From IMG/VR virus record IMGVR_UViG_3300028805_000070, positions 69,083 to 133,082 of that record: a stretch of DNA of 64,000 nt, one strand, 5' to 3'. Both the position numbers and the translations under genes were made by a program. This DNA is from a virus (Duplodnaviria; Caudoviricetes). Positions 46,829-63,992 of the stretch are shown piece by piece. The notes under the pieces were generated by a model. The model was not told the origin of the DNA, ran no database searches, and saw only the letters and a list, made by a program, of their open reading frames with translations. Position 1 is the first letter of the stretch. Each line of letters starts with the position of its first letter.

Positions 46829-46830
46829 TA

Positions 46831-49860: not shown

Positions 49861-49957
49861 CTAGGCCATTTAAATTTGAAGGGATCGAACCTTCTCAAAA
49901 ATTTTAACATCAAAAAATTTTCTTCAACCTTTATTATAAAATTGCTGTAATGGCCTA
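49861..49957 (-). ncRNA. CAGCA-stem RNA 1 (contains a T arm)
   Basis: TAGGCCATT-ACAGCAA...GAAGG-TTCGATC-CCTTC...AATGGCCTAG. Confidence 0.7.
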
Positions 49958-49961
49958 AAAA

Positions 49962-50012
49962 CTAGACGGTCTTCTTACATACACTATGTAGTTAATATGC
50001 TGTATCCGTCTA
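49962..50012 (-). ncRNA. CAGCA-stem RNA 2
   Basis: TAGACGGAT-ACAGCAT...CCGTCTAG. Confidence 0.65.
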
Positions 50013-50017
50013 TAACG

Positions 50018-50093
50018 TCCGAGTTGAGGGATTCGAACCCATTCGACCTCACGGTCCCGAACCGCGCGCTCTACCAAGCTGAGCTAAACCCGG
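50018..50093 (-). tRNA. tRNA-Pro(CGG)
   Basis: CGCGG-TTCGGGA-CCGTG. Confidence 0.88.
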
Positions 50094-50205
50094 ATATGCG
50101 GCTTCCGCCGCGAAAAAAGAAAGGAGATGATTCACAAATGTTTTGCAAGCTCAAATCTTGTTGCCTCTTATATCTACTCTTATCTCTCTTTCTGTAATTA
50201 TTATA

Positions 50206-50737
50206 TCATAAATTTTGTTCATTGTCAAACATTTGATCTTTTATTTCTTCAAGTTTACGTTTATCAGAAATATTATTTTCACCATGTTTAGTTAGCCCTC
50301 GACACAAAGGACATGAGCAATATATTTTATTCTTGGAGTATTGATGAAGATTATCATACCATCCTTCTGGCCACTGATACACCTCTTCTACAATTTTGCG
50401 CTTACGAATGGCTTTTTTCCAATCATTATGCCGTTTTTCGGCCTTATTCCTCATAATTATCATCCCCATTTAATTGTTCATTAATTGAGTCTAATTTTTT
50501 TTGATCAGAGGGACTCCAATTTTTTGAAGGAGCATAATTTTTTGGACGATATCTATGCTTACCTTTATTATTCGTTTTAAAAATTCTATTAGGATTATGA
50601 AGTTTATCTTTAGCATATTGATGAATATATTTAAAAACAGGCTTTCGATATCCTCCTTCAGTATCCATCTCTAACTCTACTCTTCGATGAATTTTAGCCC
50701 ATGTATTTTTACGGCGTTCAGCTCTACTTCTCATATG
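50206..50737 (-). CDS. Two tandem paralogous small basic proteins
   Basis: MRNKAEKRH.. and MRSRAERRK.. starts; shared HQY.K.K and D..KL motifs. Confidence 0.55.
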
Positions 50738-50759
50738 CATCAACTCCAATATAATAATA

Positions 50760-50844
50760 CTGCGCGCGAAGGAATCGAACCTTATGCCTTTTACAACACC
50801 GCCCGATTTCCAGTCGGGGCTAGCTCCAAGCTAGGTCACGCGCA
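50760..50844 (-). tRNA. tRNA-Ser(GGA), 8/4 fold
   Basis: 8-bp acceptor TGCGCGTG/CGCGCGCA, 4-bp T stem, loop CTGGAAA, G73. Confidence 0.75.
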
Positions 50845-50847
50845 TCG

Positions 50848-50935
50848 TGGCGACAGGCAGAGGACTCGCACCCCAACCCATAAGGGTCCATCCGCTTTCG
50901 AGGCGGCGCCAGCGGGCTTTACTGGTTTACCTGCC
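50848..50935 (-). tRNA. tRNA-Ser(CGA), 8/4 fold, CCA encoded
   Basis: 8-bp acceptor GGCAGGTA/TGCCTGTC, 4-bp T stem, loop CTCGAAA, GCCA end. Confidence 0.75.
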
Positions 50936-51175
50936 ATTATTCCCATGGAAATTTATTGACAATTATTGGTACATTATTATGCTATTTCTTATGTGCTCCA
51001 CAATTTGGGCAATAGCTATATAAGGAACCAATTTCTTGTTCAAAAATAAAATCATTTTCTATTTTTTTATTGCGCGAACAGGCGTATTCAAATCCACATC
51101 GACAATGAGCATATAAAGCCAAATCAAAATTATATTTTCTTATTTCCCAATGATGGTCAATACCTCGACCTTTTC

Positions 51176-51484
51176 TCATACTGACTCCATAAACATAACT
51201 GCTTTTCCATGTTCGAGCGCATATTTAATTTCGCTCTTAGTACTCTCACCAACATATCCGCCTTTATTAATTACATAAATGGCATCAGCCATATCAATTT
51301 TACGCTTATGAATGTCATCTAGCATTACTTTCTAATCATCAGTGAAGCTATCGCCAGAGTGGCCAAAAGCGCCAACACTAATAACGATGTTGCCAGCCAA
51401 GGTAAGTTCTCTATTAACACGTTCGAAATCCTCCTTGAACTTTGTGGAGCCGCATAATGTTATTACTTTATAATTGCCTATCAT
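51176..51484 (-). CDS. NDT-like / DUF4406-like protein (1 in-frame TAG)
   Basis: ITLCGSTKF...DD*KVMLDDIHKRKIDMADAIYVINKGGYVGEST..EI.YA. Confidence 0.8.
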
Positions 51485-51499
51485 ATATCCTCCATAATG

Positions 51500-51571
51500 A
51501 GGTTCCAGTGAGAGTCGAACTCACTAACGTGGATTTTGCAGACACATACCCGACCGACGAGCATTGGAACC
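51500..51571 (-). tRNA. tRNA-Cys(GCA)
   Basis: Loop CTGCAAA, U73; atypical D arm. Confidence 0.75.
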
Positions 51572-51725
51572 TATAATAAAGTTGATGGTAAATCCACGTG
51601 GTTCCTTATTTAATTACGACAACCTCACTATTAATATCGTGTTTAATAGTTACTAAATCCGTCTCCCATCTATCGACACTTCTGCCGCTGCTTGGAGTTT
51701 TTCTCCTAGGATAGCAGTACCCTTG

Positions 51726-51796
51726 TGGAGATACGGGGTGACGCTCCCCGGCCTGAAGCTTGCAAAGCTACTGTTCTACTGTTATACTATATTCCC
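51726..51796 (-). tRNA. tRNA-Ala(TGC)
   Basis: G3:U70, loop TTTGCAA. Confidence 0.8.
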
Positions 51797-51801
51797 ATAA
51801 G

Positions 51802-51875
51802 TACCCGAAAGAGGATTTGAACCTCCAAAACTCTGGTTCTTAGCCAGATACCTATGCCAATTCGGTTATTCGGGC
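51802..51875 (-). tRNA. tRNA-Leu(AAG), short variable arm
   Basis: TCTGG-CTAAGAA-CCAGA. Confidence 0.8.
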
Positions 51876-51962
51876 AAATACCTCCCTGGTTGTGCAGTCA
51901 AAGTACCCAGGGCACAAGGATTTTTAGGGGTTTGGCTTGATCTTCAAATACTGCGCTAAATG

Positions 51963-52034
51963 CGCCCGAGGTAGGGATCGAACCTACTTCTTCGCATCTA
52001 TTCGCGCCGGCCTTCCAACCTAGACGACTCGGGC
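51963..52034 (-). tRNA. Degenerate tRNA-like element, anticodon undetermined
   Basis: Good acceptor, D and T arms; irregular anticodon arm CGCGAATAGATGCG. Confidence 0.5.
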
Positions 52035-52039
52035 TTAAA

Positions 52040-52108
52040 CAAGACCTGTTTGTAAAGCGGGTTAGATTAACAGTCTAATACTTAATAAAATAGTTGCTGA
52101 CAGGTCTT
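52040..52108 (-). ncRNA. CAGCA-stem RNA 3 (Asn GUU anticodon stem-loop payload)
   Basis: AAGACCTGT-CAGCAA...TTAGA-CTGTTAA-TCTAA...ACAGGTCTTG. Confidence 0.7.
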
Positions 52109-52111
52109 TTA

Positions 52112-52185
52112 TGGCAGGGAATACGCGATTCGAACACGTATCAAGGCTTTTGGAGAGCCGTATGCTACCGTTACACCAATCCCCT
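52112..52185 (-). tRNA. tRNA-Trp(CCA)
   Basis: Loop CTCCAAA, GCCA end. Confidence 0.9.
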
Positions 52186-52192
52186 ATGGGAA

Positions 52193-52660
52193 TTATTTTC
52201 CCTTATTTTTACCTGCATAGGTTTCAGTCTGTGAATGACAATTAGGACATAAAAATCTAAGATTTTCTAATCTATTATCTCGGTTATTACCATTTTTATG
52301 ATCTAGCTGTAAACTAATAGGTTTATTTAACCATTCAGTAATACCACAGATAGCACATTTATAATCTAATAATTTAGCATCAAGTAATCTATTTTTTAAA
52401 TGTGTTGTAGAAGCATATGTAGAATTTTCTACTAATATATCATCTAAACTACGCTTTATGCCCTAATTACCTATACTTTTACCACGATTAAAATGTTTGG
52501 TAGAACATTCTAATTCTTGAATTCGTCTTTTTAGAACATCGGTAGAAGAACCGCCATTTGTACCTAAACCCAATGCTCTTAAACAATCTGAATAACTAAA
52601 ACTGTTAGCGACGATTGTTTTAAACTCTTCATCAGAAACCTAATAAATTTTACTTTTCAT
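52193..52660 (-). CDS. HNH endonuclease (2 in-frame TAG)
   Basis: CAICG...LQLDHKNGNNRDNRLENLRFLCPNCHS; paralog of 53820-54281. Confidence 0.85.
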
Positions 52661-52746
52661 ATTAATCACTCCTATGATTATATAAAATAGAGCCGGTGTA
52701 GGAGCACCTTATACTCATTAGAGAGCGACTCTAATGCTACCTCAAG

Positions 52747-52823
52747 TCGGAGTGGGTAGATTCGAACTACCGAAACCTCTTGTTTATCAGACAAGCGCTC
52801 TTGACCTACTGAGCTACACTCCG
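52747..52823 (-). tRNA. tRNA-Ile(GAT)
   Basis: CTTGT-CTGATAA-ACAAG. Confidence 0.9.
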
Positions 52824-53819
52824 GAAGCTTCCCCTGTGCCAACTCATTAACGTAACGGGCCACAGGGAGACCGACTACACATACATCTATTTAAAACTCA
52901 CGTGATATCTCTATCTTGCATTACTAATGCCTTTCATCCCAAGGGTGTATATCGTTTCAACTTGCTCGGGCAAGAGATTACCGCCACCTTTCCGCGCCTT
53001 GTAGTCACAGCCATATCAGGTGGATTCGGTACTTTCCTTATATAAACCAATATCGTTTATTTCTTGTTTTGTGGCATAACGCCATTTATAACCGCCTACA
53101 CCACAACGTCTATTATGACAAGTATCTTGTATATGACTATATGATAATCCAGTGTGTTTTGCCGCGGCATAAGCAGAATTATAAATATGTACTATTTTTT
53201 TATCCTTTAATTGAGCTACCGGTTTACTTGGATTATTTATCATCATCTTTATTTCCTGTAACTTCATTTAAAAATTCGCGCATAAACTTAAAAAACTCTT
53301 CGTCTTCAAGGAAAAATACATCTCTGCTAGTATTTACGCGACAGGCACGTTCCATATTAAGAACAAACTGCCCGAAGCGCCAATCCGGAAATTTGTGCCA
53401 TAATTCTGCAAGTTCATTACAATACTTATCAATACGATTCGGATCGCGCATACTTATCTCCTTCCATAGTCTTCCGTGCCACAATAAGCGCATTTATGAT
53501 TAGTCATTGGAGCACCACAATTAGGGCAATTTGTAGCATATTCTTTTACTTCTTCAAAATATGATTCTTCTATACAAGTCCAGCTAGACCCATCAAATAT
53601 CCACACTTGACCATATCTCATAGTTATGTCACCATAATTATAAAATATATTAGGATCATATTCACCCATAAAATTAGCTGCAGGAGTAGTTATATCTTTA
53701 ATATATCCCATAACTTTTCCATCAACAGTCATAAGTGTGCTCCTTTCTTTTTACATATAAATTATAATATAATTTATATAAAAAGTCAAATACTAGGTGC
53801 TAGATGGGACTCGAACCCA

Positions 53820-54281
53820 TTATTTCATATCTACTCTTCCAGCGCCTTTAGAATAAGTAGGTAATTGCCTATCACAATTTGGGCACACCCATCTTAAATT
53901 TTCTAATCTGTCATCATGATGTTTACCATTAATATGATCTAACGTCAAAACTAATGGTTTGCCATTCCATTCTGGCGGTAATCCACAAATAGCACATTTA
54001 TATTCTGTATAATGTCCTCGCTCATACCATCTGCGTAAAACACTTTGATTAGCGGTAGAATTTTCAACAAAAATATTTTCTGGAGTTCTTATTGTTGCTT
54101 CTTTAGTATAAAAATGACTAGTATCAATTCCATATTTTTCTATACGGTTACGCACTGTTTTATAACCCGTACCGCCATCAGAACTATAACCTAATTTTAA
54201 TGCTAAATCTCGCCAACAATTAGATTGCTTAACCTTTTCGGTTAATTCTTCAATACTAAATTGATCTACTAATGCTTTCAT
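53820..54281 (-). CDS. HNH endonuclease
   Basis: CAICG...LDHINGKHHDDRLENLRWVCPNC. Confidence 0.88.
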   Translation of the reverse strand: MKALVDQFSIEELTEKVKQSNCWRDLALKLGYSSDGGTGYKTVRNRIEKYGIDTSHFYTKEATIRTPENIFVENSTANQSVLRRWYERGHYTEYKCAICGLPPEWNGKPLVLTLDHINGKHHDDRLENLRWVCPNCDRQLPTYSKGAGRVDMK

Positions 54282-54303
54282 TTTATCACCTTCATAATAT
54301 TAG

Positions 54304-54375
54304 GAGGAAGGATAGGAGTCGAACCTACATCACTTGAGCCACAATCAAGGGTTTTACCGTTAAACTACCAACCAC
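54304..54375 (-). tRNA. tRNA-His(GTG), weak acceptor stem
   Basis: CTTGA-TTGTGGC-TCAAG, G-1. Confidence 0.75.
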
Positions 54376-54382
54376 ATGACAG

Positions 54383-54454
54383 TACCGGAGTAGGGAGTCG
54401 AACCCTAATCAAGAGATTAGAAGTCTCTTGTCGTATCCGTTGGACCACTCCAGC
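54383..54454 (-). tRNA. tRNA-Arg(TCT)
   Basis: AGAGA-CTTCTAA-TCTCT. Confidence 0.9.
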
Positions 54455-54458
54455 ATAG

Positions 54459-54530
54459 TGCGCGTGACAGGACTCGAACCTGCGACTCATGGATTAAAAG
54501 TCCATTACCTTACCACTTGGTTACACGCGC
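54459..54530 (-). tRNA. tRNA-Lys(TTT)
   Basis: ATGGA-CTTTTAA-TCCAT. Confidence 0.9.
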
Positions 54531-54732
54531 AAGATATAATGTTTAAATCTCCTATGTTTTCGTTTCATTTCAATCACTTCCTATTATATTTCCAAATATG
54601 ATAATTATCAATCATATCTGACCACCAAATAATAAATCTAGTTCTAAATTGCCACCACTTTACATCGGGTAAACTATCAAGATATTCTTGCAATGGCTTA
54701 AACTTACCTGGATTCATAAAATCACTCCGATG

Positions 54733-54805
54733 TGCGCCATGAGGGACTCGAACCCACAACTCCAGCATTAAGAGTGCCGTACTCTACCAATTGAATTAAT
54801 GGCGC
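54733..54805 (-). tRNA. tRNA-Lys(CTT)
   Basis: CGGCA-CTCTTAA-TGCTG. Confidence 0.9.
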
Positions 54806-55236
54806 AAATTTTCTAATTGTTTATTAAATTCATAATCAGTGGCAAAACGAATACCTTTGGTTTGACCATTTTTACTTGGAACTAATCTTAAAGTTAATTC
54901 TTGTCTAAATGTTCCATCTTCATCACCAAAATACAATCCACACCAATTATTTTCTTGACAGTATAAAAAGAACATATCAATTTCTTCTTTTGTATATTTA
55001 TTACTACTCCAGTTCCCTTTTACATAATTTGTAGTTTTGGTGGCAAATACCATTGCTGCCGCGTCTTTAATTGATGTAGTAGTTTTTACTTGTACACGAT
55101 ATAGTTTATTATCAATTTCAACAATCAAATCATATCGTGCATTGTTACTAAAAGGTTTTGATACAATGCAATCTGCCTGTGTAAATTTAGTAATAGCCAT
55201 AACTTCTCCTAAATCACCAACACTTACAGTATTCAT
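54796..55236 (-). CDS. PD-(D/E)XK endonuclease (group I intron-associated type)
   Basis: GDLGE, RYDLIV, RVQVKT, YTKEEIDMF. Confidence 0.8.
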   Translation of the reverse strand: MNTVSVGDLGEVMAITKFTQADCIVSKPFSNNARYDLIVEIDNKLYRVQVKTTTSIKDAAAMVFATKTTNYVKGNWSSNKYTKEEIDMFFLYCQENNWCGLYFGDEDGTFRQELTLRLVPSKNGQTKGIRFATDYEFNKQLENLRH

Positions 55237-55260
55237 TATATCACCTCAATAATCAAAATA

Positions 55261-55355
55261 TGGCGTGCCAGGAAGAGAATTACACTCTCAATGCTATTGT
55301 CGACTTAATAGCACCGGACTTACCGCCGGTTCCTTACCTACTTGGATACTGACAC
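55261..55355 (-). tRNA. Atypical class II tRNA-like gene (8-nt anticodon loop)
   Basis: GTGTCAG/CTGGCAC-GCCA acceptor, ACCGG-CGGTAAGT-CCGGT, long variable hairpin, non-canonical T loop. Confidence 0.55.
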
Positions 55356-55446
55356 ATGTGGCGGAAAGGGGATATTTACGACCTCCTCTCCCCGTTACAG
55401 GTCCGCCATTGGCGCAAGTCTTCTACGGTAACTTGTTCCCAAATAA

Positions 55447-55986
55447 TTATGGCCACTCTCCAAGCGGCATTCCAAGTCCTGCACGCTCTACATTGGTGTT
55501 GAAGAATACACCTTCGGTCGCGGGGCCAGTTAGAAGTTCGTTCGCAATTGTCTCATACAAAGTACTAATAACACCATGGCAATCATTTAGATTATCGGCC
55601 GCGAACTGCACAACACAATTGTTAAATACAACATAGGTAGTACCAATCCACTGATAGCCTTCTTCCGCGGGGCAGACAGAATACGCATAGGCAGGATTTC
55701 CCTTAAACGCAGTTTCAAATAGCACAACCTTGCTCTTGAAGGTGCGATTACTTGGAACTCCATCAATCATTATCTTTAGCTTAATATTGCCAAAACTTAC
55801 TTCTTCAGGTAGAATCTGTAGAAGAGCGGCTACTTTGTCTCCATTGTTACAAGAAAGAACAACAGAAGGATGCTCGCCACTAAAATCGACATTAAAAGCA
55901 ATTTGAGGATCGCCATCAAATAGAGCTTCTAGCTTGCGTACCACGATAGTCCAGGGCGGTAGGATTTTTAGTCTGGGTTCATTCAT
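55447..55986 (-). CDS. hypothetical phage protein
   Basis: SD GGAGGT, 179-aa ORF. Confidence 0.7.
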   Translation of the reverse strand: MNEPRLKILPPWTIVVRKLEALFDGDPQIAFNVDFSGEHPSVVLSCNNGDKVAALLQILPEEVSFGNIKLKIMIDGVPSNRTFKSKVVLFETAFKGNPAYAYSVCPAEEGYQWIGTTYVVFNNCVVQFAADNLNDCHGVISTLYETIANELLTGPATEGVFFNTNVERAGLGMPLGEWP

Positions 55987-56028
55987 ATTATAGGTACCTC
56001 CAAAATGAATTTACGCTTTTGCGCAAAG

Positions 56029-56100
56029 TCTCCAGCCGACGATTTGAACGCCGATTCCATGGTCCGTAGCCATGTGTTCTATCCCTTAGACTAGCCGGAG
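56029..56100 (-). tRNA. tRNA-Arg(ACG)
   Basis: CATGG-CTACGGA-CCATG. Confidence 0.85.
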
Positions 56101-56580
56101 AAGCAGGACGCGCTCTCGCGCACCCGAAAACTCCTTGTACACTTGGTACATGAGATTGAGGAGACCATTACTTTGCTTTCTTATATACCGCTTTCCACTA
56201 AGCCACATATCAACAACCTTATTGGGTCACTTAAATTGGCTTCTCTAATTCAGTTATTGCCGGTGGTAGTTTATCGTCTCCATAAATCCATGTTAGCGGT
56301 TCTGCCATCTCTTTCCCGTGGGCTCTTGTTATAACGGAATTTGGTACCAACCCAAGCTTCTATCCTTTCGGTCTTGCCATACGCCAAGAGAGATGGTGGA
56401 AGGCGCCGACTAGTATATTCTCCATGGATGCCGGTCGGCTCAGCACGGTATTCATTCCTACCGAGGACGTTGTGCTACCTTTATGGGCCGTGGTGCGCTT
56501 GCAAAGCCTAGGCGTGAACCCTCTCGCAGTAGTAGCACGGGATGCGTCAAATCCATCCACTGGGTTGTCAGCTGAACAAC
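56101..56580 (-). ncRNA. Large structured RNA A (AGAACCGC...GCGGTATATAA family)
   Basis: Non-coding GC-rich gap between tRNAs; motif at 56296-56303 and 56181-56191. Confidence 0.55.
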
Positions 56581-56585
56581 AATCG

Positions 56586-56659: not shown

Positions 56660-56767
56660 ATGGACGGGATTTTTGACAAGAACCCGAAAACTTGCCGCAA
56701 TATTTGTGGAATTGGCCAGCACGTTCCTGGTTGCGAAGTTTACCTCCCATGGGATTAGAGAGGCATA

Positions 56768-57257: not shown

Positions 57258-57328
57258 AGCCTCCAGACGGATTTGAACCGCCAGTTCCATATTACAAATA
57301 TGGAGTATTACCATTATACTATAGAGGC
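57258..57328 (-). tRNA. tRNA-Thr(TGT)
   Basis: CCATA-TTTGTAA-TATGG. Confidence 0.88.
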
Positions 57329-57331
57329 AGA

Positions 57332-57403
57332 AGCCGCTAGCTAGAATTAAACCAGCATCGCTGCTTTACGAGAACAATATAATAACCATTATACTATAGC
57401 GGC
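57332..57403 (-). tRNA. tRNA-Thr(CGT)
   Basis: Loop CTCGTAA; degenerate T loop. Confidence 0.7.
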
Positions 57404-58150
57404 TTATATTTTCTCCCAATCTTCATCAGAATAAGAATTAATTTCTTTCTTAGTTCTTGGCAATTGTAATTTATCACACCACTTTCTTACCGTATTACCA
57501 TCTACATTAAAATTACGTCCTAATTGTTCAAATGAGATATTTCTAATCATATTTTTTAATTCATCTCGTGCTGGTAATTCAACTTTTGTTTGATGCTTTA
57601 ATGCACATTCTTTACAACGTTTTGCACCTTTAGTAATTTTTTTCCCACATTCAATACAATAGCTATGAATTTCAGTAGTATGTATTGTTTTATTATTTAT
57701 CTGTACTATTTGTATTGGACCATTCATTTGCTGTACTATTTTACTTAATTCATAATCTCTTGCGGGTGTAATATTTTTAGTACTACCTTGTAAAGTTATA
57801 TCACTAAGATATAAGCTTTTTTGAGTCTCACCACAAATTTCTACTGGAACTAAATATGAAGTACCATTGAAATAAGTATAAAAATAATCAATTTCATCTG
57901 TAGTATATGTATGCTCTAATACTTCTTTTGTATTTCCTCGTATACTGGTTGTTTTAAATGAAATACTTGTTCCATATTCATTTAATAAACTAGTTTTACA
58001 TTGTATACGTTTTAACTGTCCTCCAATATCAGCAATATAATCATAACGACAATCATGTGATATTGGTTTACTCAACATAATACCCAATTCAGTAAAAGCT
58101 AATTGACAATAAGTTTCAGTTATAAGTCCTTTTTGATTAGTTTCATTCAT
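57404..58150 (-). CDS. PD-(D/E)XK endonuclease with Zn finger and HTH
   Basis: KGLITE, RYDYIAD, RIQCKT, YTTDEIDYF, CIECG..RCKEC, HTH. Confidence 0.8.
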   Translation of the reverse strand: MNETNQKGLITETYCQLAFTELGIMLSKPISHDCRYDYIADIGGQLKRIQCKTSLLNEYGTSISFKTTSIRGNTKEVLEHTYTTDEIDYFYTYFNGTSYLVPVEICGETQKSLYLSDITLQGSTKNITPARDYELSKIVQQMNGPIQIVQINNKTIHTTEIHSYCIECGKKITKGAKRCKECALKHQTKVELPARDELKNMIRNISFEQLGRNFNVDGNTVRKWCDKLQLPRTKKEINSYSDEDWEKI

Positions 58151-58631
58151 AATATCACTCTCCTGATATTTAAAATATATTTGGGCTTGCGGAAGAGCGC
58201 ATTACTCGTTGGTTAATTACTCCAACGCTACCCCAGTACTACCATTATACGATGGAGGCAGATTGGGAGAAGTCAGTCATTCCTAATGCTCCCTGGAGTT
58301 CAACTTATATCCCGCCTAAAAATGACACTCATCGGCGGCATACAAGAAAGATTGTTCTTTCTCGGGATCTCTCCCCTTGGTACATTAATATTATAACAAA
58401 ATTTTTATTAAAAGTCAAATATTAGATTTTTGGAGTTCCATTATAGCAGTCATTTAAAATTACGAGTATGAAAAATATAACGAGTATAAGTAATCCCCAA
58501 CTCATAGTTATCATCTCAGTATGCGATACGCATTGTTAGGAAGAGGAATAGAAGGATAAGTATAGGGATAAAGAAGAGTTTCTTCATATGCATCAACTCC
58601 ATATAGAAAATGCCCCATTTAATGGGGCGAG

Positions 58632-58715
58632 TCCGGGTGGTGGGATTCGAACCCACAAGGAGCTACGCTCCGACAGATTTTAAGTCTGTTGCCTGGGCCG
58701 TTCGGCTACACCCGG
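58632..58715 (-). tRNA. tRNA-Leu(TAA)
   Basis: ACAGA-CTTAAAA-TCTGT, long variable arm. Confidence 0.9.
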
Positions 58716-58827
58716 ATAAAATACAGGATTTGTTCGCCATACGTCTATGGTCAAGCAGAGTATTAAGTGAAGTAGCTTCTCATCACTCCTGTAAATTTGA
58801 TAGTATATAACCCTTACCACACTATCA

Positions 58828-59272
58828 TTGCGCTCTAGAAACGCCGGTTTTGTTGTCGGGAACCATCACTCTCTTTATATACCGCAAGTTACCGGCGGTT
58901 CTTGATTTCGGGGAACTTCCCCTGCGGCCAAGAGAAGCCTTATCTACGGCGCGGAGTGGTATCCGGCGTAGGGGAGGACCCGGGCCTTACAGCCAGCCCT
59001 AATGGTAGTTTTTCCTCATACTGGAGATTGCTAAGGAAAATGCAACTAGTACTCAGCGCCATTCTCGACGCTGACATTTACCTTTCATACAAAGCGTGTA
59101 CTCATTAAGCACACACCCACGGCTTTTGTTTTAGCTCCCATCTTATAAAAGCCGTAAAACCGGAGCACAACTAGTTCCGACATTTATAACGCGCACATCT
59201 CAGTTGTCAGCAATTGCGCGGGCGAAGGGTCTATTTTTTACTTGCTTACTACCATCGTCCATTAAAGCGCAA
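58828..59272 (-). ncRNA. Large structured RNA B (AGAACCGC...GCGGTATATAA family)
   Basis: 10-bp terminal helix TTGCGCTTTA/TAGAGCGCAA; long-range pairs CCGGTTTT/AAAACCGG and GGGAGCTA/TGGTTCCC. Confidence 0.6.
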
Positions 59273-59347
59273 GTGTCCGTTTCCTATGATAGAATACCTC
59301 GACCAGAGCAGGCTCCGAGCGGTACAACGGCTCATACTATCAAAATA

Positions 59348-59410
59348 CTAGGCACATTTGAAAACTTTTTAATAGCAAGTTGTTCCTCATAGGGTTGCTG
59401 TGTGTGCCTA
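59348..59410 (-). ncRNA. CAGCA-stem RNA 4
   Basis: TAGGCACAC-ACAGCAA...TGTGCCTAG. Confidence 0.7.
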
Positions 59411-59413
59411 TAG

Positions 59414-59475
59414 CATGACACCTTATATTTCATCAGAATATATGTAAGTGATTATAATATTGCTGTCGGTGTCAT
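59414..59475 (-). ncRNA. CAGCA-stem RNA 5 (anticodon-like loop CUGAUGA)
   Basis: ATGACACCG-ACAGCAA...ATATT-CTGATGA-AATAT...GGTGTCATG. Confidence 0.7.
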
Positions 59476-59561
59476 TTTAAATACCAAGGCCCTCGCATAT
59501 ACATAATATATGGATACCTTGTGCCTCCTGCTATAGTAGGTCGGTCTGTCTTGCACTTTAT

Positions 59562-60179
59562 TTATTCTTCTATATAATATTTCCATTTGTATCCACCAGA
59601 AGTTTTGTTAGGATTTTTACACGCTTTGGAAATATTACTATGATCTCCTTTTATTGCTTTAGCAGCAGCGGATACAGAAGGAAAAATTTGTATAATCTCA
59701 TTAGTATTTATATCTATTTGTGCAACAGGTCTGGCTTTATATTTATTATTCTAATTAGTATTTAATTTAGATTGCTTTATGGCAGTTTGAACTGTTTCTT
59801 TTGCACAATGATATTTTCGAGCAATGGCTAAAATTCCCATTCCAGATAAAAAATCATCAATAAATAAATCATAATTATATAATTGTTTTCCATCACCGCC
59901 ATGAGTAGCATTATATCCATTATGAAATGTATTTAATTCATTAATCCAATATTTTTCTCGTTCTTCTAATATAGATAATTCACATTTTTCAAGCTATGAA
60001 ACTGAGAAATGTTCAATTCCATATTTATTCATAGCATCATATAAAGGTCGTTTTTCACATCGAGAGCGTGTAGAATCTTTTATATGCTCTCTAAACCTTT
60101 TTTCTATAGTGTCAGTGGTTTTTCCTACATACTATTTCCCATTAATATCATTTGTAATACAATAAATAAAACCTGTCAT
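59562..60179 (-). CDS. GIY-YIG/NUMOD1 homing endonuclease (3 in-frame TAG)
   Basis: GFIYCITNDINGK*YVGKT...RF.EH...EREKYWI...GYNAT.GGDG...FPSVSAAA...GGYKW. Confidence 0.88.
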
Positions 60180-60274
60180 AATAATTCCTCCTATGAATTA
60201 AAATTGTGGCCGGTAATAGGAGTACCTTAATCTCGTTGGTCATGACTCCAACGCTACCCAAAATATAAAATATA

Positions 60275-60393
60275 CAAGACACACTTTAACCGCGCTTCTG
60301 CCAATTGAGCGACCTCCCATCAGCTGGGAGGGTTGGAGTCGAACCAACACTTGACGGGCTCCCTAAGCAAAGAAAATAATGCTGATGTGTCTT
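60275..60393 (-). ncRNA. CAGCA-stem RNA 6: YrlA-like Y RNA with circularly permuted tRNA domain
   Basis: AAGACACAT-CAGCAT...T arm GTTGG-TTCGACT-CCAAC, closed acceptor CCTCCCA-GCTGA-TGGGAGG, D arm GCTCAATTGGCAGAAGC...GTGTGTCTTG. Confidence 0.8.
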
Positions 60394-60398
60394 TAAAG

Positions 60399-60469
60399 CG
60401 GCCCCTGAGAGAATCGGACTCCCATCAAGCGGTTAACAGCCGCCCGCTTTACCATTAAGCTAAGGGGCC
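60399..60469 (-). tRNA. tRNA-Asn(GTT)
   Basis: GGCGG-CTGTTAA-CCGCT. Confidence 0.9.
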
Positions 60470-60560
60470 AAATATTGCCTACCCAAAGTTCCTCAAATGA
60501 GGCGGAACAGGCGGCTAATAGTGTTCCTTATGATGGCTCAGGCGGGATACCCTTGCCGAG

Positions 60561-60633
60561 TGGCACAGACAAGAATCGAACTTGCATTTGTTGGGTATGA
60601 GCCAACTGTCCTAAGCCTTTAGACGACCGTGCG
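60561..60633 (-). tRNA. tRNA-Met(CAT), initiator-like 1:72 mismatch
   Basis: GTTGG-CTCATAC-CCAAC; C1 unpaired. Confidence 0.8.
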
Positions 60634-60731
60634 ATATAAAAAGGTCAACTTGTAGCTATCAAGCTGACCGAGGTAATCCTAGCTACAGAAACCATACCAT
60701 AAGCGCACCTTCTGCCGAGTCGCCAATACGC

Positions 60732-60918
60732 GGCGACCCGCTGGACTTGAACCAGTTCTCTATGTATAGGCTGTCCCTCTTCTCAGATTGGCCCTGAGAT
60801 ACGGCCGCAACTTTTTTAAACACGTACAGTTGCTGGTACAATCGCGATACCCTCAGAGGATTTGAACCTTCATCTCCGCCACTGGCGTTGTTTTCTCCAA
60901 CTTAAACTATCTTTGGGC
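60732..60918 (-). pseudogene. Two degenerate tRNA-like elements (60732-60808 and 60848-60918)
   Basis: T arms (CTGG-TTCAAGT-CCAG; GAAGGTTCAAATCCTC) and acceptor-like ends but no canonical anticodon arm. Confidence 0.45.
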
Positions 60919-60924
60919 ATATAA

Positions 60925-61760
60925 GGAGCTTGATATCCGAGCCTCCCAACCTCGGTCATATGATACCGCCGATTCAGAGTAGGCAGCGAGTTTCCCGACT
61001 TGCTCTGACAAATCTGTTGGTTCCTCATATCATATGAAAGACTACCAAGCTAGTAGCAGTTTGCTCTTGCTTGTAGACACCGGCTTATTTTATATACCGC
61101 GGACGGTGCGCGGCACCTTTTTTTTACGTGGGTTATGTATCCACGGAGGTTGCTCGTCGCAACCCGCTTCATAGAGCGGCCTCGATTTTTTATCCTCGGT
61201 CTCTCCGAGACCAACGGCCTACTCCGGGCTTACTCCGGTATTCCGATGCGCTTCGTTTGGTGTCTTATGCGCGTTTCAGGCTTGCAATCCTGCGAGAGCA
61301 TCCGACGTCCGGCTCTCCTGCCGGTCGGCAGCTTCCCTCCCATCGGTTCTTCAGCCAAATACCAATTCATCGACTGGACTACTAATGTTTATACTCGTAA
61401 GCTCTACCGAGTGTTCCGGCCTACACATTGTGACGAGGAGTGGGCGGCGAAGAACGCGGTTCTTCTAATCCACTTACTTTGTTCTAGGTAGCTACTCCTA
61501 GCCAAACGGAGCCTTCTCCATATTTCTCTCGTTTTTCAGCCGTTAAGTTTTCCGCCTAAGCGAGGATAACTTATAACCCATACGCGTACTATGTTTGCAC
61601 TGCCATCTCGCTGCGTTGCATAACAGATGAATCTTCTGCGACCTAGCCGGCTCCTTTTGATGTTCTCGGACATCTGCGTGTGGGGAGTCTAGATATACCT
61701 TCTCACTTAACCGCTCAACTGCATCTTTTACTTGCACCAGTGAGAGGCAAGCCCATTATA
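60925..61760 (-). ncRNA. Large structured RNA C of about 800 nt (AGAACCGC...GCGGTATATAA family; ROOL/GOLLD size class)
   Basis: No credible ORF, GC-rich, many hairpins; motif at 61456-61463 and 61090-61100; boundaries approximate. Confidence 0.55.
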
Positions 61761-61765
61761 TGGGA

Positions 61766-61824
61766 CTAGGCGCATCAATATTATATTACCCTCTAATATA
61801 TATAAATATTGCTGTAAGCGCCTA
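61766..61824 (-). ncRNA. CAGCA-stem RNA 7
   Basis: TAGGCGCTT-ACAGCAA...GCGCCTAG. Confidence 0.7.
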
Positions 61825-61827
61825 TAG

Positions 61828-61948
61828 TCCGCCACCCTGGACTCGAACCAGGGACACACGGCTTATTGGTGGAGCCCAAGAGTGCTGCCCTCTCGTAAAG
61901 CCTAGCAAGCCCCAAGGCCGCCGCTCTAACCGACTGAGCTAGTGGCGG
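61828..61948 (-). tRNA. tRNA-Ile(TAT) interrupted in the anticodon by a 47-nt mini-tRNA-like insert (61867-61913)
   Basis: Canonical acceptor, D and T arms; GCGGC-CTT[insert]ATAA-GCCGT. Confidence 0.8.
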
Positions 61949-62567
61949 ATAAAATCAGCAGTGCAAGCAGTCATCTTACCAAGCGCGGCATCGCCATCCG
62001 AGCGGCGTGCCCAGTTGACTAAACTGGGAAGCAAGTCACCGCTTGAGGATTTGAACCTCTACACTACGTTCCTACCCTTTCAACATATTTATTATAACAT
62101 AATTTTTATTGAAAGTCAAATATTAGTCAAGGAAATTTTCAACCAGATTTTCCGTAGAGTAACCAATGCTTTCGATAAAGCGCGCAAAGGCATCGCACAC
62201 ATCGGGCAACTTGATACCAGATTCATTTGAAATAGTTATTTCTACGTCTTCCGTGGGTATCTCGCTATCCTTATCTTCATCTTCAAAAGTATACCAGAAT
62301 CTAATCGTTTCCATCTCTTTCCCTTCCTTTCGTAAATATTATACCTTAATTTTCCTCTTTTGTCAAGTAATCGTTTTCCAAATCTTCAATAGACCAATCT
62401 TCATCTTCAAGTTCTTCCCAAGAGAAATTCATAATGAAATCATCTAGCATCAATTTCGCCCCTTTCTCTTCCTTACAAACATATTATAACAAAAATTCAA
62501 TTAAAAGTCAAATAAAAAACTCCGTATATTTCAGAAACTAATTGCGTTAGCCTGATAGGGATACGGA

Positions 62568-62812
62568 GGTGCGGCCGCGGGTTCGCAACTCCCCGACCAC
62601 GGGCGATGTATGGCGTCGCCTTGCCCGCAATATAACGTGTTGTGACTACGCTCCTATTTAACATCGGGGAGATAGATGAGTATTTTTACGGAATACTAAA
62701 TTCGTTGCTATATTACTATAGTAGCCTAACACCGGCTCTCATACATCTGTCATCCTAGGCTGACTTAACGGGGTAATGACTCCCGGGTAGCATACGTGCT
62801 TGCCTGCGCACC
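62568..62812 (-). ncRNA. Candidate structured ncRNA of about 245 nt
   Basis: Terminal helix GGTGCG/CGCACC, GC-rich, downstream of tRNA-Gly, followed by a terminator-like hairpin 62520-62568. Confidence 0.4.
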
Positions 62813-62848
62813 CATTCTTTTCGCGATAGGTGAATGAGAGAAACCCAG

Positions 62849-62919
62849 AGCGCCATACCCGAATCGGACGGGCATTAGATGCTTGGAAGGCACCTGTGTT
62901 ACCTTTACACCAATGGCGC
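62849..62919 (-). tRNA. tRNA-Gly(TCC)
   Basis: GGTGC-CTTCCAA-GCATC, U73. Confidence 0.88.
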
Positions 62920-63903
62920 AATATATTCATCTATCCAATCATAAATAGTCATATATTCTATGAATGGATATTGTTCCGCAGTCATATTACGAATTAAAGT
63001 ATACTCAACTTTATTAGAAGTAAGAATACTTTTTAATTCTTTAATATCTATTTCTAGATAAGAAAGAAAGATTGGAATATAAGGCTACAAAGTTTCTTTC
63101 ATTTTCGTCTTCAATATCTCTTTTTCTTCGTCATTGTTGGCCGTTTGAGAATAAAAATAGAATGATAAAAGGTCGTGCATTCCCATATCATATATCGTAT
63201 ACATTTGCGCGCCTGTTAATGATTCGTGTTGAATCATTTGTACTATTGGAACAAACGTACTTTGAATAGTATCAGATATTACTGCACAATGATAGGTTTC
63301 CTATTGAGATATTGATCCTTTTGACTTAACCCAAATATAAAAACTTTCTTCCCAGATATTAGGTTCTATATTATTTTTAATACAAGTTAAAATAATTTTA
63401 CGTGTAAAATTAATATCTTCGCTATAAATTAATTTATCATAATTGATATTATTTTTTCTTAAAAAAGAAAGCTCAAAAAATTTACCGTGCGTATAAATAT
63501 CCATAGGAGTATATGATACTGATTCATCATCATTAGAATGATGCTCTACTCCCGTATATAGGGTATTCTAAATATGATTTTTAATTATATATTCACGTAC
63601 TTTATCAAAGGTATAATCACAAAAATAGTCATCTTGATCCTAAAAACATATCCATTCGCCTTGTACTTCTTCTAATCCGTGCTGACGACCTGGCCGCGGG
63701 AATCCATAATGCTTATCATTTTGGATTACTCTAATATGAAGCATAGGGAATTGCGCCAAAACATCATCAAATGGTTCAGTAGAGATATCGTCTGATATGA
63801 TAACTTCAATATCGTCTATACACTTATTTGTAGCGATAGCCTAAAGCGCGGCTGGGAGATACTTGTTAGGATTATAAGTCGGTATAATAATTGAGAAGAA
63901 CAT
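62905..63903 (-). CDS. Glycosyltransferase family 2 (5 in-frame TAG)
   Basis: FSIIIPTYN, IISDD.S, GEWICF*DQDD (DxD), SEDINF; TAA at 62905. Confidence 0.85.
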
Positions 63904-63927
63904 AATTACCTCGTTTTAGAAAGAATA

Positions 63928-63992
63928 CTCGGCACATTGATAATTAGCTGTTATCTTCTAAATGGTGCTAAAAAAGTTGCTGTATGTGCCGA
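63928..63992 (-). ncRNA. CAGCA-stem RNA 8
   Basis: TCGGCACAT-ACAGCAA...ATGTGCCGAG. Confidence 0.7.

What the first reader, a model, noticed from the sequence alone, without database searches (positions are those of the whole stretch)
49861..63992. Family of eight covarying 'CAGCA-stem' small RNAs with interchangeable payloads: candidate phage Ro60/Y-RNA system
Seen: eight dispersed 50-120 nt elements (49861-49957, 49962-50012, 52040-52108, 59348-59410, 59414-59475, 60275-60393, 61766-61824, 63928-63992). On the minus strand each has a 7-9 bp terminal stem followed by (A)CAGCA(A/T) and ends one G after the stem. The stem sequence changes but pairing is kept (TAGGCC/GGCCTA, TAGACGG/CCGTCTA, AAGACCTG/CAGGTCTT, ATGACACC/GGTGTCAT, TCGGCAC/GTGCCGA), which indicates RNA structure rather than a DNA repeat. 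Interiors differ: a permuted tRNA domain, lone anticodon stem-loops, a T arm, or plain hairpins. Known: Y RNAs are modular, with a terminal stem bound by Ro60/Rsr plus an effector domain, and bacterial Ro genes associate with RNA-repair genes. Inference: the CAGCA stem is the binding site of the TROVE-like vWA protein at 44635-46110, giving one protein a set of different RNA adaptors or decoys. The motif differs from the Ro-binding consensus I know for YrlA.
Basis: partly seen in the sequence, partly recalled or inferred. Interest (0 to 1): 0.92.

Follow-up and report, generated by a model that had tools for sequence, protein, structure and literature searches.

The report
Phage Ro60-like protein's partner RNAs
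A 133-kb gut or rumen-type phage hides eight small RNA genes among its tRNA genes; they share one short "handle" but carry different tRNA look-alike parts, and across very different phages this handle sits beside the gene for a Ro60-shaped ring protein, so they are most likely its partner RNAs, a pairing I found in neither Rfam nor the papers searched.

Summary
All eight elements exist on the minus strand at the stated places. Each has a 7-bp closing stem (pairs 8-9 optional), two free bases, ACAGCAA (CAGCA invariant), a variable interior and a 3' G-U. About one such element is expected by chance in the window.

The family is real and widespread. A pattern scan of IMG/VR gave 72 loci. In 63 the unconstrained stem positions pair perfectly, and in the other 9 they differ only by G-U pairs. 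Covariation on 80 members is strong. No Rfam 15 family matches.

- The protein at 44635-46128 (DUF2828 + DUF7788) is predicted to fold like Ro60 (VIA-align Z 20.1 over 419 residues).
- 46 of 49 handle-bearing contigs encode it (19 of 19 complete ones), against 6 of 40 tRNA-bearing control contigs.
- In 80 DUF2828 loci, 183 handles lie upstream on the gene strand, 9 downstream and 8 on the other strand.
- No other neighbouring gene is constant.

Payloads are tRNA parts: anticodon loops, T arms, a YrlA-type permuted tRNA (E6) and, in relatives, whole tRNA bodies. Binding itself is not shown.

The handle also equals that of the orphan Dictyostelium Class I RNAs.

This scan has noted the same system before on other DNA. 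I class it as a new variant of the Ro60-Y RNA kind.

The parts
49862..49957 (-). E1: handle RNA, 96 nt. Closing stem UAGGCCAUU/AAUGGCCUA, then ACAGCAA. The payload is a D-like hairpin, an anticodon-like arm and a T arm (GAAGG UUCGAUC CCUUC).
   Evidence: Sequence; fold (z -3.3). CM R1 finds it although it was not in the training set (33.8 bits). Its ortholog L104:272-343 scores 28.4 bits on the Rfam tRNA model, just under the cut-off of 29.
49963..50012 (-). E2: handle RNA, 50 nt. Stem UAGACGG/CCGUCUA, then AU + ACAGCAU, with a small hairpin payload. It starts 4-5 nt after tRNA-Pro(CGG).
   Evidence: 42 bits. A consensus promoter at 50228-50200 lies upstream of tRNA-Pro.
52041..52108 (-). E3: handle RNA, 68 nt. 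Stem AAGACCUGU/ACAGGUCUU, then CAGCAA. The payload is UUAGA CUGUUAA UCUAA, an Asn-type anticodon loop. It starts 3 nt after the CCA end of tRNA-Trp.
   Evidence: 57.7 bits. Orthologs carry compensatory stem changes and a Lys-type loop (CUUUUAA) instead.
59349..59410 (-). E5: handle RNA, 62 nt. Stem UAGGCACA/UGUGCCUA, then C + ACAGCAA, with a hairpin payload. It lies 4 nt after E4.
   Evidence: 50.2 bits.
59415..59475 (-). E4: handle RNA, 61 nt. Stem AUGACACC/GGUGUCAU, then G + ACAGCAA. The payload is AUAUU CUGAUGA AAUAU, an Ile-like GAU loop.
   Evidence: 43.1 bits.
60276..60393 (-). E6: handle RNA, 118 nt. Stem AAGACACAU/GUGUGUCUU, then CAGCAU. The payload is a circularly permuted tRNA body: T arm (GUUGG UUCGACU CCAAC), a closed 7-bp acceptor hairpin (CCUCCCA GCUGA UGGGAGG) and a D arm (GCUC AAUUGGCAG AAGC). 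It starts 4 nt after tRNA-Asn.
   Evidence: Sequence; fold. The Rfam YrlA model matches exactly this interior (60294-60349, model positions 30-81 of 114, 19.8 bits, E 4.6). A relative's element L104:144-254 matches YrlA over its full length at 34.9 bits.
61767..61824 (-). E7: handle RNA, 58 nt. Stem UAGGCGC/GCGCCUA, then UU + ACAGCAA, with an AU-rich hairpin payload. It starts 3 nt after the intron-bearing tRNA-Pro(UGG).
   Evidence: (58.1 bits). A promoter at 62119-62091 lies upstream of the unit.
63929..63992 (-). E8: handle RNA, 64 nt. Stem UCGGCACAU/AUGUGCCGA, then ACAGCAA. The payload is GAUAA CAGCUAA UUAUC, a Ser-like GCU loop. It lies 8 nt from the contig end.
   Evidence: 61.9 bits. 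The contig ends at window base 64000, so the array may continue beyond it.
44635..46128 (-). Gene for the DUF2828 + DUF7788 protein (497 aa; an alternative start is at 46110). It is predicted to form a Ro60-like ring of helical repeats plus a vWA domain with an intact MIDAS motif, and it is the proposed partner of the handle RNAs.
   Evidence: Pfam PF11443 (4.5e-28) and PF25043 (1.1e-40). Model pLDDT 93.6. Ro60 chains are the top hits. D298, S300, S302, T363 and D395 are invariant in 79 homologs.
46244..47463 (-). Two genes directly upstream of DUF2828: a calcineurin-like phosphoesterase (46244-46828) and a P-loop kinase of the AAA_33 type (46831-47463). Together they form an RNA end-healing pair like Pnkp.
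   Evidence: Pfam PF00149 (1.7e-6) and PF13671 (3.5e-18). They are present in only 8-9 of 80 DUF2828 loci.
43791..44552 (-). Gene directly downstream of DUF2828: a weak RlaP-like (RNA-repair pathway) nucleotidyltransferase.
   Evidence: PF10127 at 1.4e-4 and 22.1 bits, just under the cut-off of 23. Homologs are present in 26 of 80 DUF2828 loci.
39344..40570 (-). RNA ligase gene (PHA02142 OB-fold domain plus RNA_ligase domain) in the same gene block.
   Evidence: PF09414 (1.5e-22) and PF21189 (1.5e-21).
50200..50228 (-). Consensus sigma-70-type promoter (TTGACA, 17 nt, TGnTATAAT) in front of the unit tRNA-Pro, E2, E1.
   Evidence: 12 of 12 hexamer matches. A G+C-rich hairpin followed by a T run, read in the sequence at about 49745-49775, follows E1.

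Best explanation
The eight elements are genes for small stable RNAs of one widespread family.

Anatomy. Each RNA has two modules. The first is a constant 'handle': its 5' and 3' ends pair in a 7-bp stem, followed on the 5' side by two free bases and the single-stranded word ACAGCAA, and on the 3' side by G-U. The second is an exchangeable body that copies parts of tRNA: anticodon stem-loops, a T arm, or a permuted T arm, acceptor and D arm as in YrlA.

Expression (inferred). They are transcribed from the minus strand inside short tRNA cassettes with their own promoters. They lie 3-5 nt from neighbouring tRNAs, so the enzymes that cut out tRNAs probably release them.

Partner (inferred). The handle is the docking site for the phage's DUF2828 protein, a remote structural homolog of the Ro60 ring (helical-repeat toroid plus vWA/MIDAS domain). 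The RNAs would then work like Y RNAs: one protein loaded with a set of different tRNA-mimic bodies.

Role (more speculative). The gene sits among RNA end-healing and sealing genes (kinase, phosphoesterase, RNA ligase, RlaP-like nucleotidyltransferase). The bodies copy Lys, Asn, Ile and Ser anticodon loops. The likeliest role is therefore in the conflict over tRNA cleavage: either presenting tRNA look-alikes to tRNA-acting enzymes or nucleases as adaptors or decoys, or gating the ring's access to damaged tRNA.

Shown: the RNA family, its covariation, the fold of the protein and the genomic linkage. Inferred: binding, processing and the role.
For: 1. The family is real. There are 8 copies against about 1 expected. 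72 IMG/VR loci match a pattern that leaves four stem positions free; 63 pair perfectly there and the other 9 differ only by G-U. Covariation is 0.506 against 0.155 in shuffles, with 0 of 500 shuffles reaching it.

2. The protein is Ro60-like. Foldseek's top 12 hits are all Ro60/TROVE chains, E 4e-8. VIA-align gives Z 20.1 over 419 residues at rmsd 4.1. The MIDAS residues are invariant.

3. Linkage, starting from the RNA. 46 of 49 handle-bearing contigs and 19 of 19 complete ones (33-245 kb) encode DUF2828. Among tRNA-bearing control contigs the figures are 6 of 40 and 2 of 15. Fisher p is 5e-15 and 1e-7.

4. Linkage, starting from the protein. In 80 DUF2828 loci (37-80% identity) all 106 CM hits are on the gene strand and 105 lie upstream. 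My scanner finds 183 upstream, 9 downstream, 1 inside and 8 on the other strand; 30 of the nearest copies are within 500 nt of the start. Density is 15.2 per 100 kb on the gene strand, 0.73 on the opposite strand and 0.91 in DUF2828-negative controls.

5. Natural control in cellular genomes. Of 39 pattern hits, the 28 without a stem have DUF2828 nearby in 0 cases. Of the 11 with a stem, 5 do, four of them 86-290 nt away.

6. It is not a by-product of tRNA arrays. A complete 36-kb phage with no tRNA gene has two handles beside DUF2828. In a 33-kb phage the order is promoter, two handles, ribosome-binding site, DUF2828.

7. No other neighbouring gene is constant: the RlaP-like gene occurs in 26 of 80 loci and all others in 10 or fewer.

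8. Precedent. Yrl1 and Yrl2 lie upstream of the Ro60 gene of Thermus phage phiLo and bind it (PMC12135203). YrlA RNAs carry tRNA-like domains (PMC4201824).

9. Bodies are tRNA-like. 137 of 390 elements have 5-bp/7-nt hairpins with U33 and a purine at 37, against 18.6 in shuffles. 68 have GTTCRANTC. Relatives carry YrlA-like and whole-tRNA bodies.
Against: - No experiment shows the RNAs exist as discrete species or bind the protein.
- In this window the nearest copy is 3.7 kb and the farthest 18 kb from the gene, so linkage here rests on the wider family.
- DUF2828 is related to Ro60 by predicted fold only. Sequence searches see nothing: Pfam TROVE is absent, and the PDB profile search gives E 1.9.
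- The handle lacks the known Ro60 site (GNCGAAN0-1G, or the bulged helix).
- 10-15 of 80 DUF2828 loci showed no handle within 6 kb. Some were truncated, and some were rescued by a looser scan.
- CM R1 misses a second stem class (AGGAU...AUCCU), so my counts depend on the detector.
- Related phages share ancestry, so the counts are not independent events.
Confidence: 0.72

Rival explanations
1. The handle is bound or used by a different factor: a host RNA-binding protein, RNase P or another processing enzyme, or another phage protein. DUF2828 would then be linked only functionally, as part of the same RNA-damage module, and would not dock on the handle.
For: Binding is untested. The Dictyostelium Class I RNAs carry the same ACAGCAA word, and the one protein shown to bind them directly is the RRM protein Rnp1A, not a Ro-like protein (PMC7919456). 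In this window the elements sit among tRNAs and not next to the gene.
Against: DUF2828 is the only constant neighbour (80 of 80 loci; the next best gene is in 26 of 80). In minimal phages the handles and the gene form one promoter-to-gene unit with nothing else in it. The protein has the fold of a known RNA-binding ring whose partner RNA genes lie in the same position.
Confidence: 0.12
2. The elements are punctuation or processing modules of tRNA operons, or decayed tRNA remnants kept as spacers. They would have no trans-acting role and no specific tie to DUF2828.
For: Four of the eight directly abut a tRNA 3' end, at tRNA-like spacing of 3-5 nt. The interiors are tRNA pieces. The 7-bp stem plus one 3' base recalls an acceptor stem. 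DUF2828 is itself fairly common in tRNA-bearing phages (6 of 40).
Against: A complete phage without any tRNA gene has two copies beside DUF2828. CM R1 found no copy in 34 tRNA-bearing contigs that lack DUF2828, and density near their tRNAs is at background, 0.91 against 15.2 per 100 kb. ACAGCAA is invariant while everything else changes, which decay would not preserve.
Confidence: 0.08
3. The elements are cis-acting leaders or operators of the DUF2828 messenger, used for autoregulation or attenuation, rather than free RNAs.
For: In many phages they lie within tens of nucleotides upstream of the start codon, on the same transcript.
Against: In this window all eight are 3.7-18 kb from the gene. 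They sit in separate promoter-driven tRNA cassettes, with other genes in between. Copies occur downstream of the gene as well. Two to thirteen copies with different tRNA-like bodies are hard to explain as one operator. A dual role, as partner RNA and as autoregulatory site, is not excluded for the gene-proximal copies.
Confidence: 0.06

Closest known systems
Ro60 (Rsr/TROVE2) with Y RNAs, especially bacterial and phage YrlA/YrlB (Rfam RF02553; Chen et al. 2014, PMC4201824) and Thermus phage phiLo Ro60 with Yrl1/Yrl2 (PMC12135203)
   Same: - The protein is a ring of helical repeats plus a vWA/MIDAS domain.
- The small RNA genes lie next to, and mostly upstream of, the protein gene on the same strand, often in several copies.
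- The RNA ends pair in a terminal stem, with a conserved single-stranded word just above it on the 5' side.
- A second module mimics tRNA. E6 and L104:144-254 have the YrlA order: T arm, closed acceptor, D arm.
- The system is associated with RNA-repair genes.
   Different: - The protein belongs to another sequence family: PF11443/PF25043, not PF05731, with about 12% identity to Ro60. Sequence searches do not connect the two.
- The conserved word is ACAGCAA, not GNCGAAN0-1G.
- The second helix of YrlA is missing.
- No member reaches the YrlA cut-off: the best scores 34.9 bits against 69.
- Bodies are far more varied (lone anticodon loops, T arms, whole tRNA bodies, plain hairpins), and there are up to eight or more copies per genome, embedded in tRNA arrays.
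Dictyostelium Class I RNAs (Rfam RF01414; Aspegren et al. 2004; Kjellin et al. 2021, PMC7919456; search pattern in PMC5054030)
   Same: - The size is about 42-65 nt.
- The 5' and 3' ends pair in a short covarying stem of 6-7 bp.
- The stem is followed by two or three bases and the same heptamer ACAGCAA. The published pattern is GTTGRC-CTT-ACAGCAA ... GTCAAC-TG.
- A short G/U tail follows the 3' strand.
- The rest of the RNA varies in sequence and structure.
- There are many gene copies per genome.
   Different: - They are eukaryotic, with their own promoter element (DUSE).
- The stem sequence differs.
- The Rfam model RF01414 gives no match to the window's elements even at E 10 in a 141-nt search.
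- The only protein shown to bind them directly is the RRM protein Rnp1A.
- I could not test here whether dictyostelids encode a DUF2828-family protein.
- A shared 7-nt word could be convergence.
tRNA genes and tRNA-like small RNAs of phage tRNA clusters
   Same: They share the strand, spacing and transcription units of the tRNAs. The bodies reuse T arms, D arms and anticodon loops.
   Different: None of the eight is called by ARAGORN or reaches the Rfam tRNA cut-off. None has a cloverleaf with a standard acceptor end. The conserved handle has no counterpart in tRNA.

Membership tests
Y RNA (functional class: partner RNAs of a Ro60-type ring protein) | Gene lies next to a Ro60/TROVE-type protein gene | tested here: met
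   The family-wide linkage is to DUF2828, a structural Ro60 homolog. In this window the distance is 3.7-18 kb, on the same strand.
Y RNA (functional class: partner RNAs of a Ro60-type ring protein) | 5' and 3' ends pair in a terminal stem that carries the protein-binding site | tested here: inconclusive
   The terminal stem is present and covaries. Whether it is a protein-binding site is untested.
Y RNA (functional class: partner RNAs of a Ro60-type ring protein) | Known Ro60 recognition motif (bulged helix in animals; GNCGAAN0-1G or CGAA in bacteria and phages) | tested here: not met
   The handle has ACAGCAA instead. The alignment to the YrlA model places it where AUGCu lies, and the second helix is absent.
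Y RNA (functional class: partner RNAs of a Ro60-type ring protein) | Physical association with the ring protein | not testable with these tools
   This needs EMSA, RIP-seq or a co-structure.
Rfam YrlA (RF02553) | Covariance-model score at or above the gathering cut-off (69 bits) | tested here: not met
   E6 scores 19.8 bits and only over model positions 30-81. The best relative scores 34.9 bits over the full length. The other seven give no match.
Rfam YrlA (RF02553) | tRNA-like domain in the order T arm, closed acceptor stem, D arm | tested here: met
   This holds for E6 only: sequence, fold, partial model match. The other seven have other bodies.
Dictyostelium Class I RNA (RF01414) | Covariance-model match | tested here: not met
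   RF01414 gives no match at E up to 10 on window 59340-59480, nor at E up to 5 on 47000-64000.
Dictyostelium Class I RNA (RF01414) | Short terminal stem followed by the conserved motif ending in ACAGCAA, with a variable remainder and a length of about 60 nt | tested here: met
   The published pattern is GTTGRCCTTACAGCAA ... GTCAACTG (PMC5054030), with features as described in PMC7919456.
tRNA (RF00005) | Cloverleaf recognised by ARAGORN or by the Rfam tRNA model at its cut-off | tested here: not met
   None of the eight is called. An E1 ortholog reaches 28.4 bits against a cut-off of 29.
Ro60/TROVE protein family (for the protein at 44635-46128) | Pfam TROVE (PF05731) or other sequence-level match to Ro60 | tested here: not met
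   Pfam gives only PF11443 and PF25043. phmmer and the profile search against PDB sequences give no significant hit. The contig has no PF05731 match.
Ro60/TROVE protein family (for the protein at 44635-46128) | Ro60 fold: helical-repeat ring closed by a vWA domain, aligned over the full length | tested here: met
   Foldseek E 4e-8, TM 0.56-0.60, with the top 12 hits all Ro60/TROVE. VIA-align gives Z 20.1, 419 aligned residues, rmsd 4.1. This is a predicted model, not a solved structure.
Ro60/TROVE protein family (for the protein at 44635-46128) | MIDAS metal site in the vWA domain (DxSxS ... T ... D) | tested here: met
   D298, S300, S302, T363 and D395 are invariant in 79 homologs.

The most novel reading that the evidence does not exclude
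The ACAGCAA handle is the recognition element of an ancient ribonucleoprotein built on DUF2828-family Ro60-like rings. That system would reach from phages and bacteria to eukaryotes. The orphan Class I RNAs of Dictyostelium have the same short closing stem, spacing, heptamer and size, and are said to be unique to dictyostelids. They would be its eukaryotic members, which would give them a candidate protein partner and tie them to RNA surveillance or repair.
Probability: 0.2. Interest if true: 0.95.

Novelty: new variant of a known kind. Interest (0 to 1): 0.85.

Why it matters
DUF2828 is a very large family of unknown function. In one search, 6420 cluster representatives matched at E up to 0.001. 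About 15% of a sample of tRNA-bearing phage contigs carry it. The family also occurs in bacteria, and papers mention it in plants.

If it is a Ro60-like ring with its own class of partner RNAs, three things follow.
- The Ro-Y RNA principle is far more widespread in viruses than the few canonical phage Ro60 cases suggest.
- Phages load one protein with a whole set of tRNA look-alikes, which points at the conflict over tRNA cleavage and repair.
- Many 'empty' gaps in phage tRNA clusters turn out to be genes.

The handle is short and simple to mutate, so binding and function are directly testable. The identity with the Dictyostelium Class I handle could open an unsolved question in a model eukaryote.

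Tried and rejected
- Rfam 15 at gathering and at permissive thresholds gave no family for the handle. It found only a partial YrlA match inside E6, and RF01414 did not appear.
- Megablast of 44000-52200 against GenBank phages gave no match.
- Sequence searches of the protein against PDB, as a single sequence and as a profile, gave no Ro60 hit. The link is by predicted fold only.
- Literature searches for DUF2828, PF11443, DUF7788, UCP015417 and TROVE/vWA/RNA repair/phage found no paper on an RNA partner of this family.
- Avesson et al. [quoted passage not shown] The ESM Atlas gave only phage and bacterial DUF2828 clusters. I therefore could not test whether dictyostelids have a DUF2828 protein.
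- CM R1 was built from AT-rich UAGRC/AAGAC-stem members. It misses long members (E6 here) and the AGGAU...AUCCU stem class of other lineages: it hit 1 of 6 DUF2828-positive controls, while a looser scan found 5 of 6. It undercounts.
- Hammerhead-like CUGAUGA in E4 was considered and dropped. It is absent from the other copies and is better read as an anticodon-like loop.
- A DNA repeat or mobile element was rejected, because stems change by compensatory pairs and all copies are strand-specific.
- A first PHROGs call failed on a wrong frame and was not repeated.

Full report
**What is there**

The window is the second half of a 133-kb phage contig. Almost everything in it reads on the minus strand, and many reading frames contain in-frame TAG. 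From 49.4 kb to the contig end lies a cluster of 21-23 tRNA genes mixed with small ORFs.

In each, the minimum-free-energy fold pairs the two ends. A strict scanner required a 7-bp stem, then 2-3 nt, then CAGCA, with G after the stem. It finds these eight with 7/7 Watson-Crick pairs and nothing on the plus strand. Shuffled windows give about one hit on both strands together, with a maximum of four. The remaining 69 kb of the contig has no further copy.

**Anatomy of the handle**

I built a covariance model from 14 short members. It recovered E1, which was not in the training set. It missed only the 118-nt E6.

On 80 members aligned to the model, the constant part is as follows:
- A before the stem (76/80).
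- A 7-bp stem, U/A-A-G-R-C-N-N.
- Two free bases, which extend the stem in about half of the members.
- ACAGCAA, with C, A, G, C in 80/80.
- A variable body of 25-95 nt.
- Two A/U bases, then the 3' strand.
- G (80/80) and U (71/80).

Eight of nine pairs show changes on both sides, and one position uses all four Watson-Crick pairs. The covariation score is 0.506, against 0.155 in column shuffles (0 of 500 reach it) and at most 0.125 when partners are slid. The alignment was fitted to the model, which favours the structure.

The independent pattern scan below does not have that bias.

**Spread**

The pattern ATAGRC-N4-ACAGCAW-N25-55-GYCTAGT leaves four stem positions unconstrained. It hit 72 IMG/VR loci. 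In 63 of them the free positions pair perfectly, and in the other 9 the only departures are G-U pairs.

The same pattern in 596 Gb of cellular genomes gave 39 hits:
- 28 have no stem and are chance matches.
- 11 have a stem; most are from Clostridia, Bacilli and similar MAGs, and one is from a Halobacillus isolate.

No Rfam 15 family matches the handle. I found no paper describing it.

**The protein**

The gene at 44635-46128 encodes a 497-aa protein with Pfam DUF2828 and DUF7788. Sequence methods do not connect it to Ro60.

An AlphaFold2 model built on 79 homologs is confident, with pLDDT 93.6 and pTM 0.92. Its 12 best Foldseek matches in the PDB are all Ro60/TROVE chains: Xenopus, human, Deinococcus and Thermus phage phiLo. 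They align over the full length with E down to 4e-8 and TM 0.56-0.60. VIA-align gives Z 20.1 over 419 residues at rmsd 4.1 Å. The first non-Ro hits match only the vWA domain, at Z about 10. The MIDAS residues are invariant.

**Linkage, from the RNA side**

Of 49 handle-bearing contigs that could be searched, 46 encode DUF2828. The three without it are 22-51% complete. All 19 contigs that are at least 90% complete have it, and these range from 33 to 245 kb.

As a control I took 40 IMG/VR contigs found through a generic tRNA D-arm word. DUF2828 is present in 6 of 40, and in 2 of 15 complete ones. Fisher p is 5e-15 and 1e-7. The model finds no handle in the 34 DUF2828-negative controls.

Of the six positive controls, five have handles on the gene strand beside the gene. 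These carry a second stem class (AGGAUNN ... NNAUCCU-GU) that the model misses.

**Linkage, from the protein side**

In 80 DUF2828 loci (37-80% identity, ±6 kb):
- All 106 model hits are on the gene's strand, and 105 lie upstream.
- My scanner counts 183 upstream, 9 downstream, 1 inside and 8 on the other strand.
- 65 of 80 loci have at least one, and 30 of the nearest copies are within 500 nt of the start codon.
- Several apparent negatives have a copy that the strict scanner missed.

With a looser scanner the density is 15.2 per 100 kb on the gene strand. It is 0.73 on the opposite strand and 0.91 in the negative controls.

In the cellular-genome scan, none of the 28 stemless chance hits has DUF2828 nearby. 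Five of the 11 stemmed ones do, four of them at 86-290 nt.

**Not a side effect of tRNA arrays or of another gene**

- A complete 36-kb phage has no tRNA gene at all, yet has two handles directly beside DUF2828.
- A 33-kb phage has the order consensus promoter, two handles, ribosome-binding site, DUF2828. This is the arrangement reported for Yrl1/Yrl2 and Ro60 of phage phiLo.
- Among the window's neighbouring genes, only DUF2828 is constant across the 80 loci. The RlaP-like nucleotidyltransferase occurs in 26; the kinase, phosphoesterase, RNA ligase and the rest occur in 10 or fewer.

**The bodies**

In the window:
- E6 holds a T arm, a closed 7-bp acceptor hairpin and a D arm. The Rfam YrlA model matches exactly that stretch, though weakly.
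- E3, E4 and E8 hold 5-bp/7-nt hairpins with Asn-, Ile- and Ser-type anticodon loops.
- E1 holds a T arm and an anticodon-like arm.
- E2, E5 and E7 hold plain hairpins.

In relatives:
- One element is a textbook YrlA-type permuted tRNA (34.9 bits over the full YrlA model).
- Others enclose a whole tRNA body, with D, anticodon and T arms, in normal order.

Over 390 distinct elements, 137 have tRNA-style hairpins against 18.6 in shuffled interiors. T loops account for 38 of these. The commonest anticodon-like triplets are UUU (18), GUU (10), GAU (8) and GCU (6). Orthologous positions can swap body: Asn-type here, Lys-type in relatives.

**How it most likely works**

Shown:
- A covarying RNA family with an invariant single-stranded word.
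- A protein predicted to fold like Ro60.
- Tight, oriented genomic linkage of the two across very different phages.

Inferred:
- The RNAs are cut out of tRNA cassettes. Consensus promoters lie at 50228-50200 and 62119-62091, and spacing to the tRNAs is 3-5 nt.
- The handle docks on the ring, as Y RNA stems do on Ro60.
- The tRNA-like bodies act as adaptors or decoys towards tRNA-acting enzymes. This fits the end-healing and sealing genes around DUF2828 here and the Lys/Asn-type loops. Those loops resemble the usual targets of anticodon nucleases; that last point rests on my own knowledge.

I give about 0.72 to 'partner RNAs of DUF2828' and much less to any particular role.

**Compared with what is known**

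It works like Ro60 with Y RNAs, most like YrlA. It fails membership of YrlA: the score is below the cut-off, there is no GNCGAA motif and the second helix is missing. The protein is not a sequence-level TROVE member.

Earlier notes of this scan pointed to a second resemblance, which I checked in papers. Dictyostelium Class I RNAs are 42-65 nt long. They have a short covarying closing stem followed by a motif that ends in the same ACAGCAA, and a variable remainder. The published search pattern is GTTGRCCTTACAGCAA ... GTCAACTG. The Rfam Class I model does not match the phage elements. I could not test whether dictyostelids have a DUF2828 protein. This stays a lead.

**Status within the scan**

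The scan has noted this system before on other DNA. Its index lists 164 notes in at least 129 genomes that mention it, and several follow-ups reached the same reading. My scores rest on the tests made here.

**Verdict**

This is a new variant of the Ro60-Y RNA kind: a different protein family, a different handle, and modular tRNA-mimic bodies. It is of high interest. Binding and function remain to be shown at the bench.

Noticed in passing
window 1-64000, e.g. 34679-37177 (-), 59562-60179 (-), 62905-63903 (-): Many long minus-strand frames are open only if TAG is read as a residue: 21 in-frame TAG in 34679-37177, 5 in 62905-63903, 3 in 59562-60179. The phage therefore appears to recode TAG. 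ARAGORN finds no tRNA with a CUA anticodon in the 133-kb contig, which CheckV rates about 75% complete.
   Followed up: partly
window 58973-59117 (-): There is a full-length match to the Rfam family cow-rumen-3 RNA (RF03083, 115 bits against a cut-off of 86.7). It lies about 230 nt downstream of E5 in the same RNA-gene region. A weak DUF3800-XI match overlaps its 3' end.
   Followed up: no
window 61828-61948 (-): This is a tRNA-Pro(UGG) with a 47-nt insert in the anticodon loop (ARAGORN with introns allowed; Rfam tRNA 50.9 bits). E7 follows it directly.
   Followed up: no
window 62520-62847 (-) and 61950-62080 (-): Two G+C-rich, hairpin-rich stretches have no long ORF and no Rfam match. The first lies directly after tRNA-Gly. 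The second lies between a consensus promoter (62119-62091) and the intron-bearing tRNA-Pro. Both are possibly further structured RNAs.
   Followed up: no
window 51726-51796 (-) and 51500-51571 (-): The Rfam model calls two tRNA-like sequences here (39.4 and 29.5 bits), but ARAGORN does not. They may be degenerate or unusual tRNAs.
   Followed up: no
window 59562-60179 (-): The ORF between E6 and E4 begins MTGFIYCITNDINGK(TAG)YVGKT, which looks like a GIY-YIG homing endonuclease. It has three in-frame TAG codons. I did not run it against Pfam.
   Followed up: no
L345:5630-5683, L347:5957-6017, L346:7432-7561, L348 and L350 (loci from the control contigs): In other phage lineages the handle uses a second stem class, AGGAUNN ... 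NNAUCCU followed by GU, with the same spacing and the same ACAGCAA. Model R1 does not detect it. A family model should be built from both classes.
   Followed up: partly
window 47834-62511, minus strand: Nine promoter-like sites with 11-12 of 12 consensus matches, all on the minus strand, stand in front of short tRNA or small-ORF units. Examples are 50228-50200, 62366-62338 and 62119-62091. This suggests that the region is a series of self-contained cassettes.
   Followed up: no
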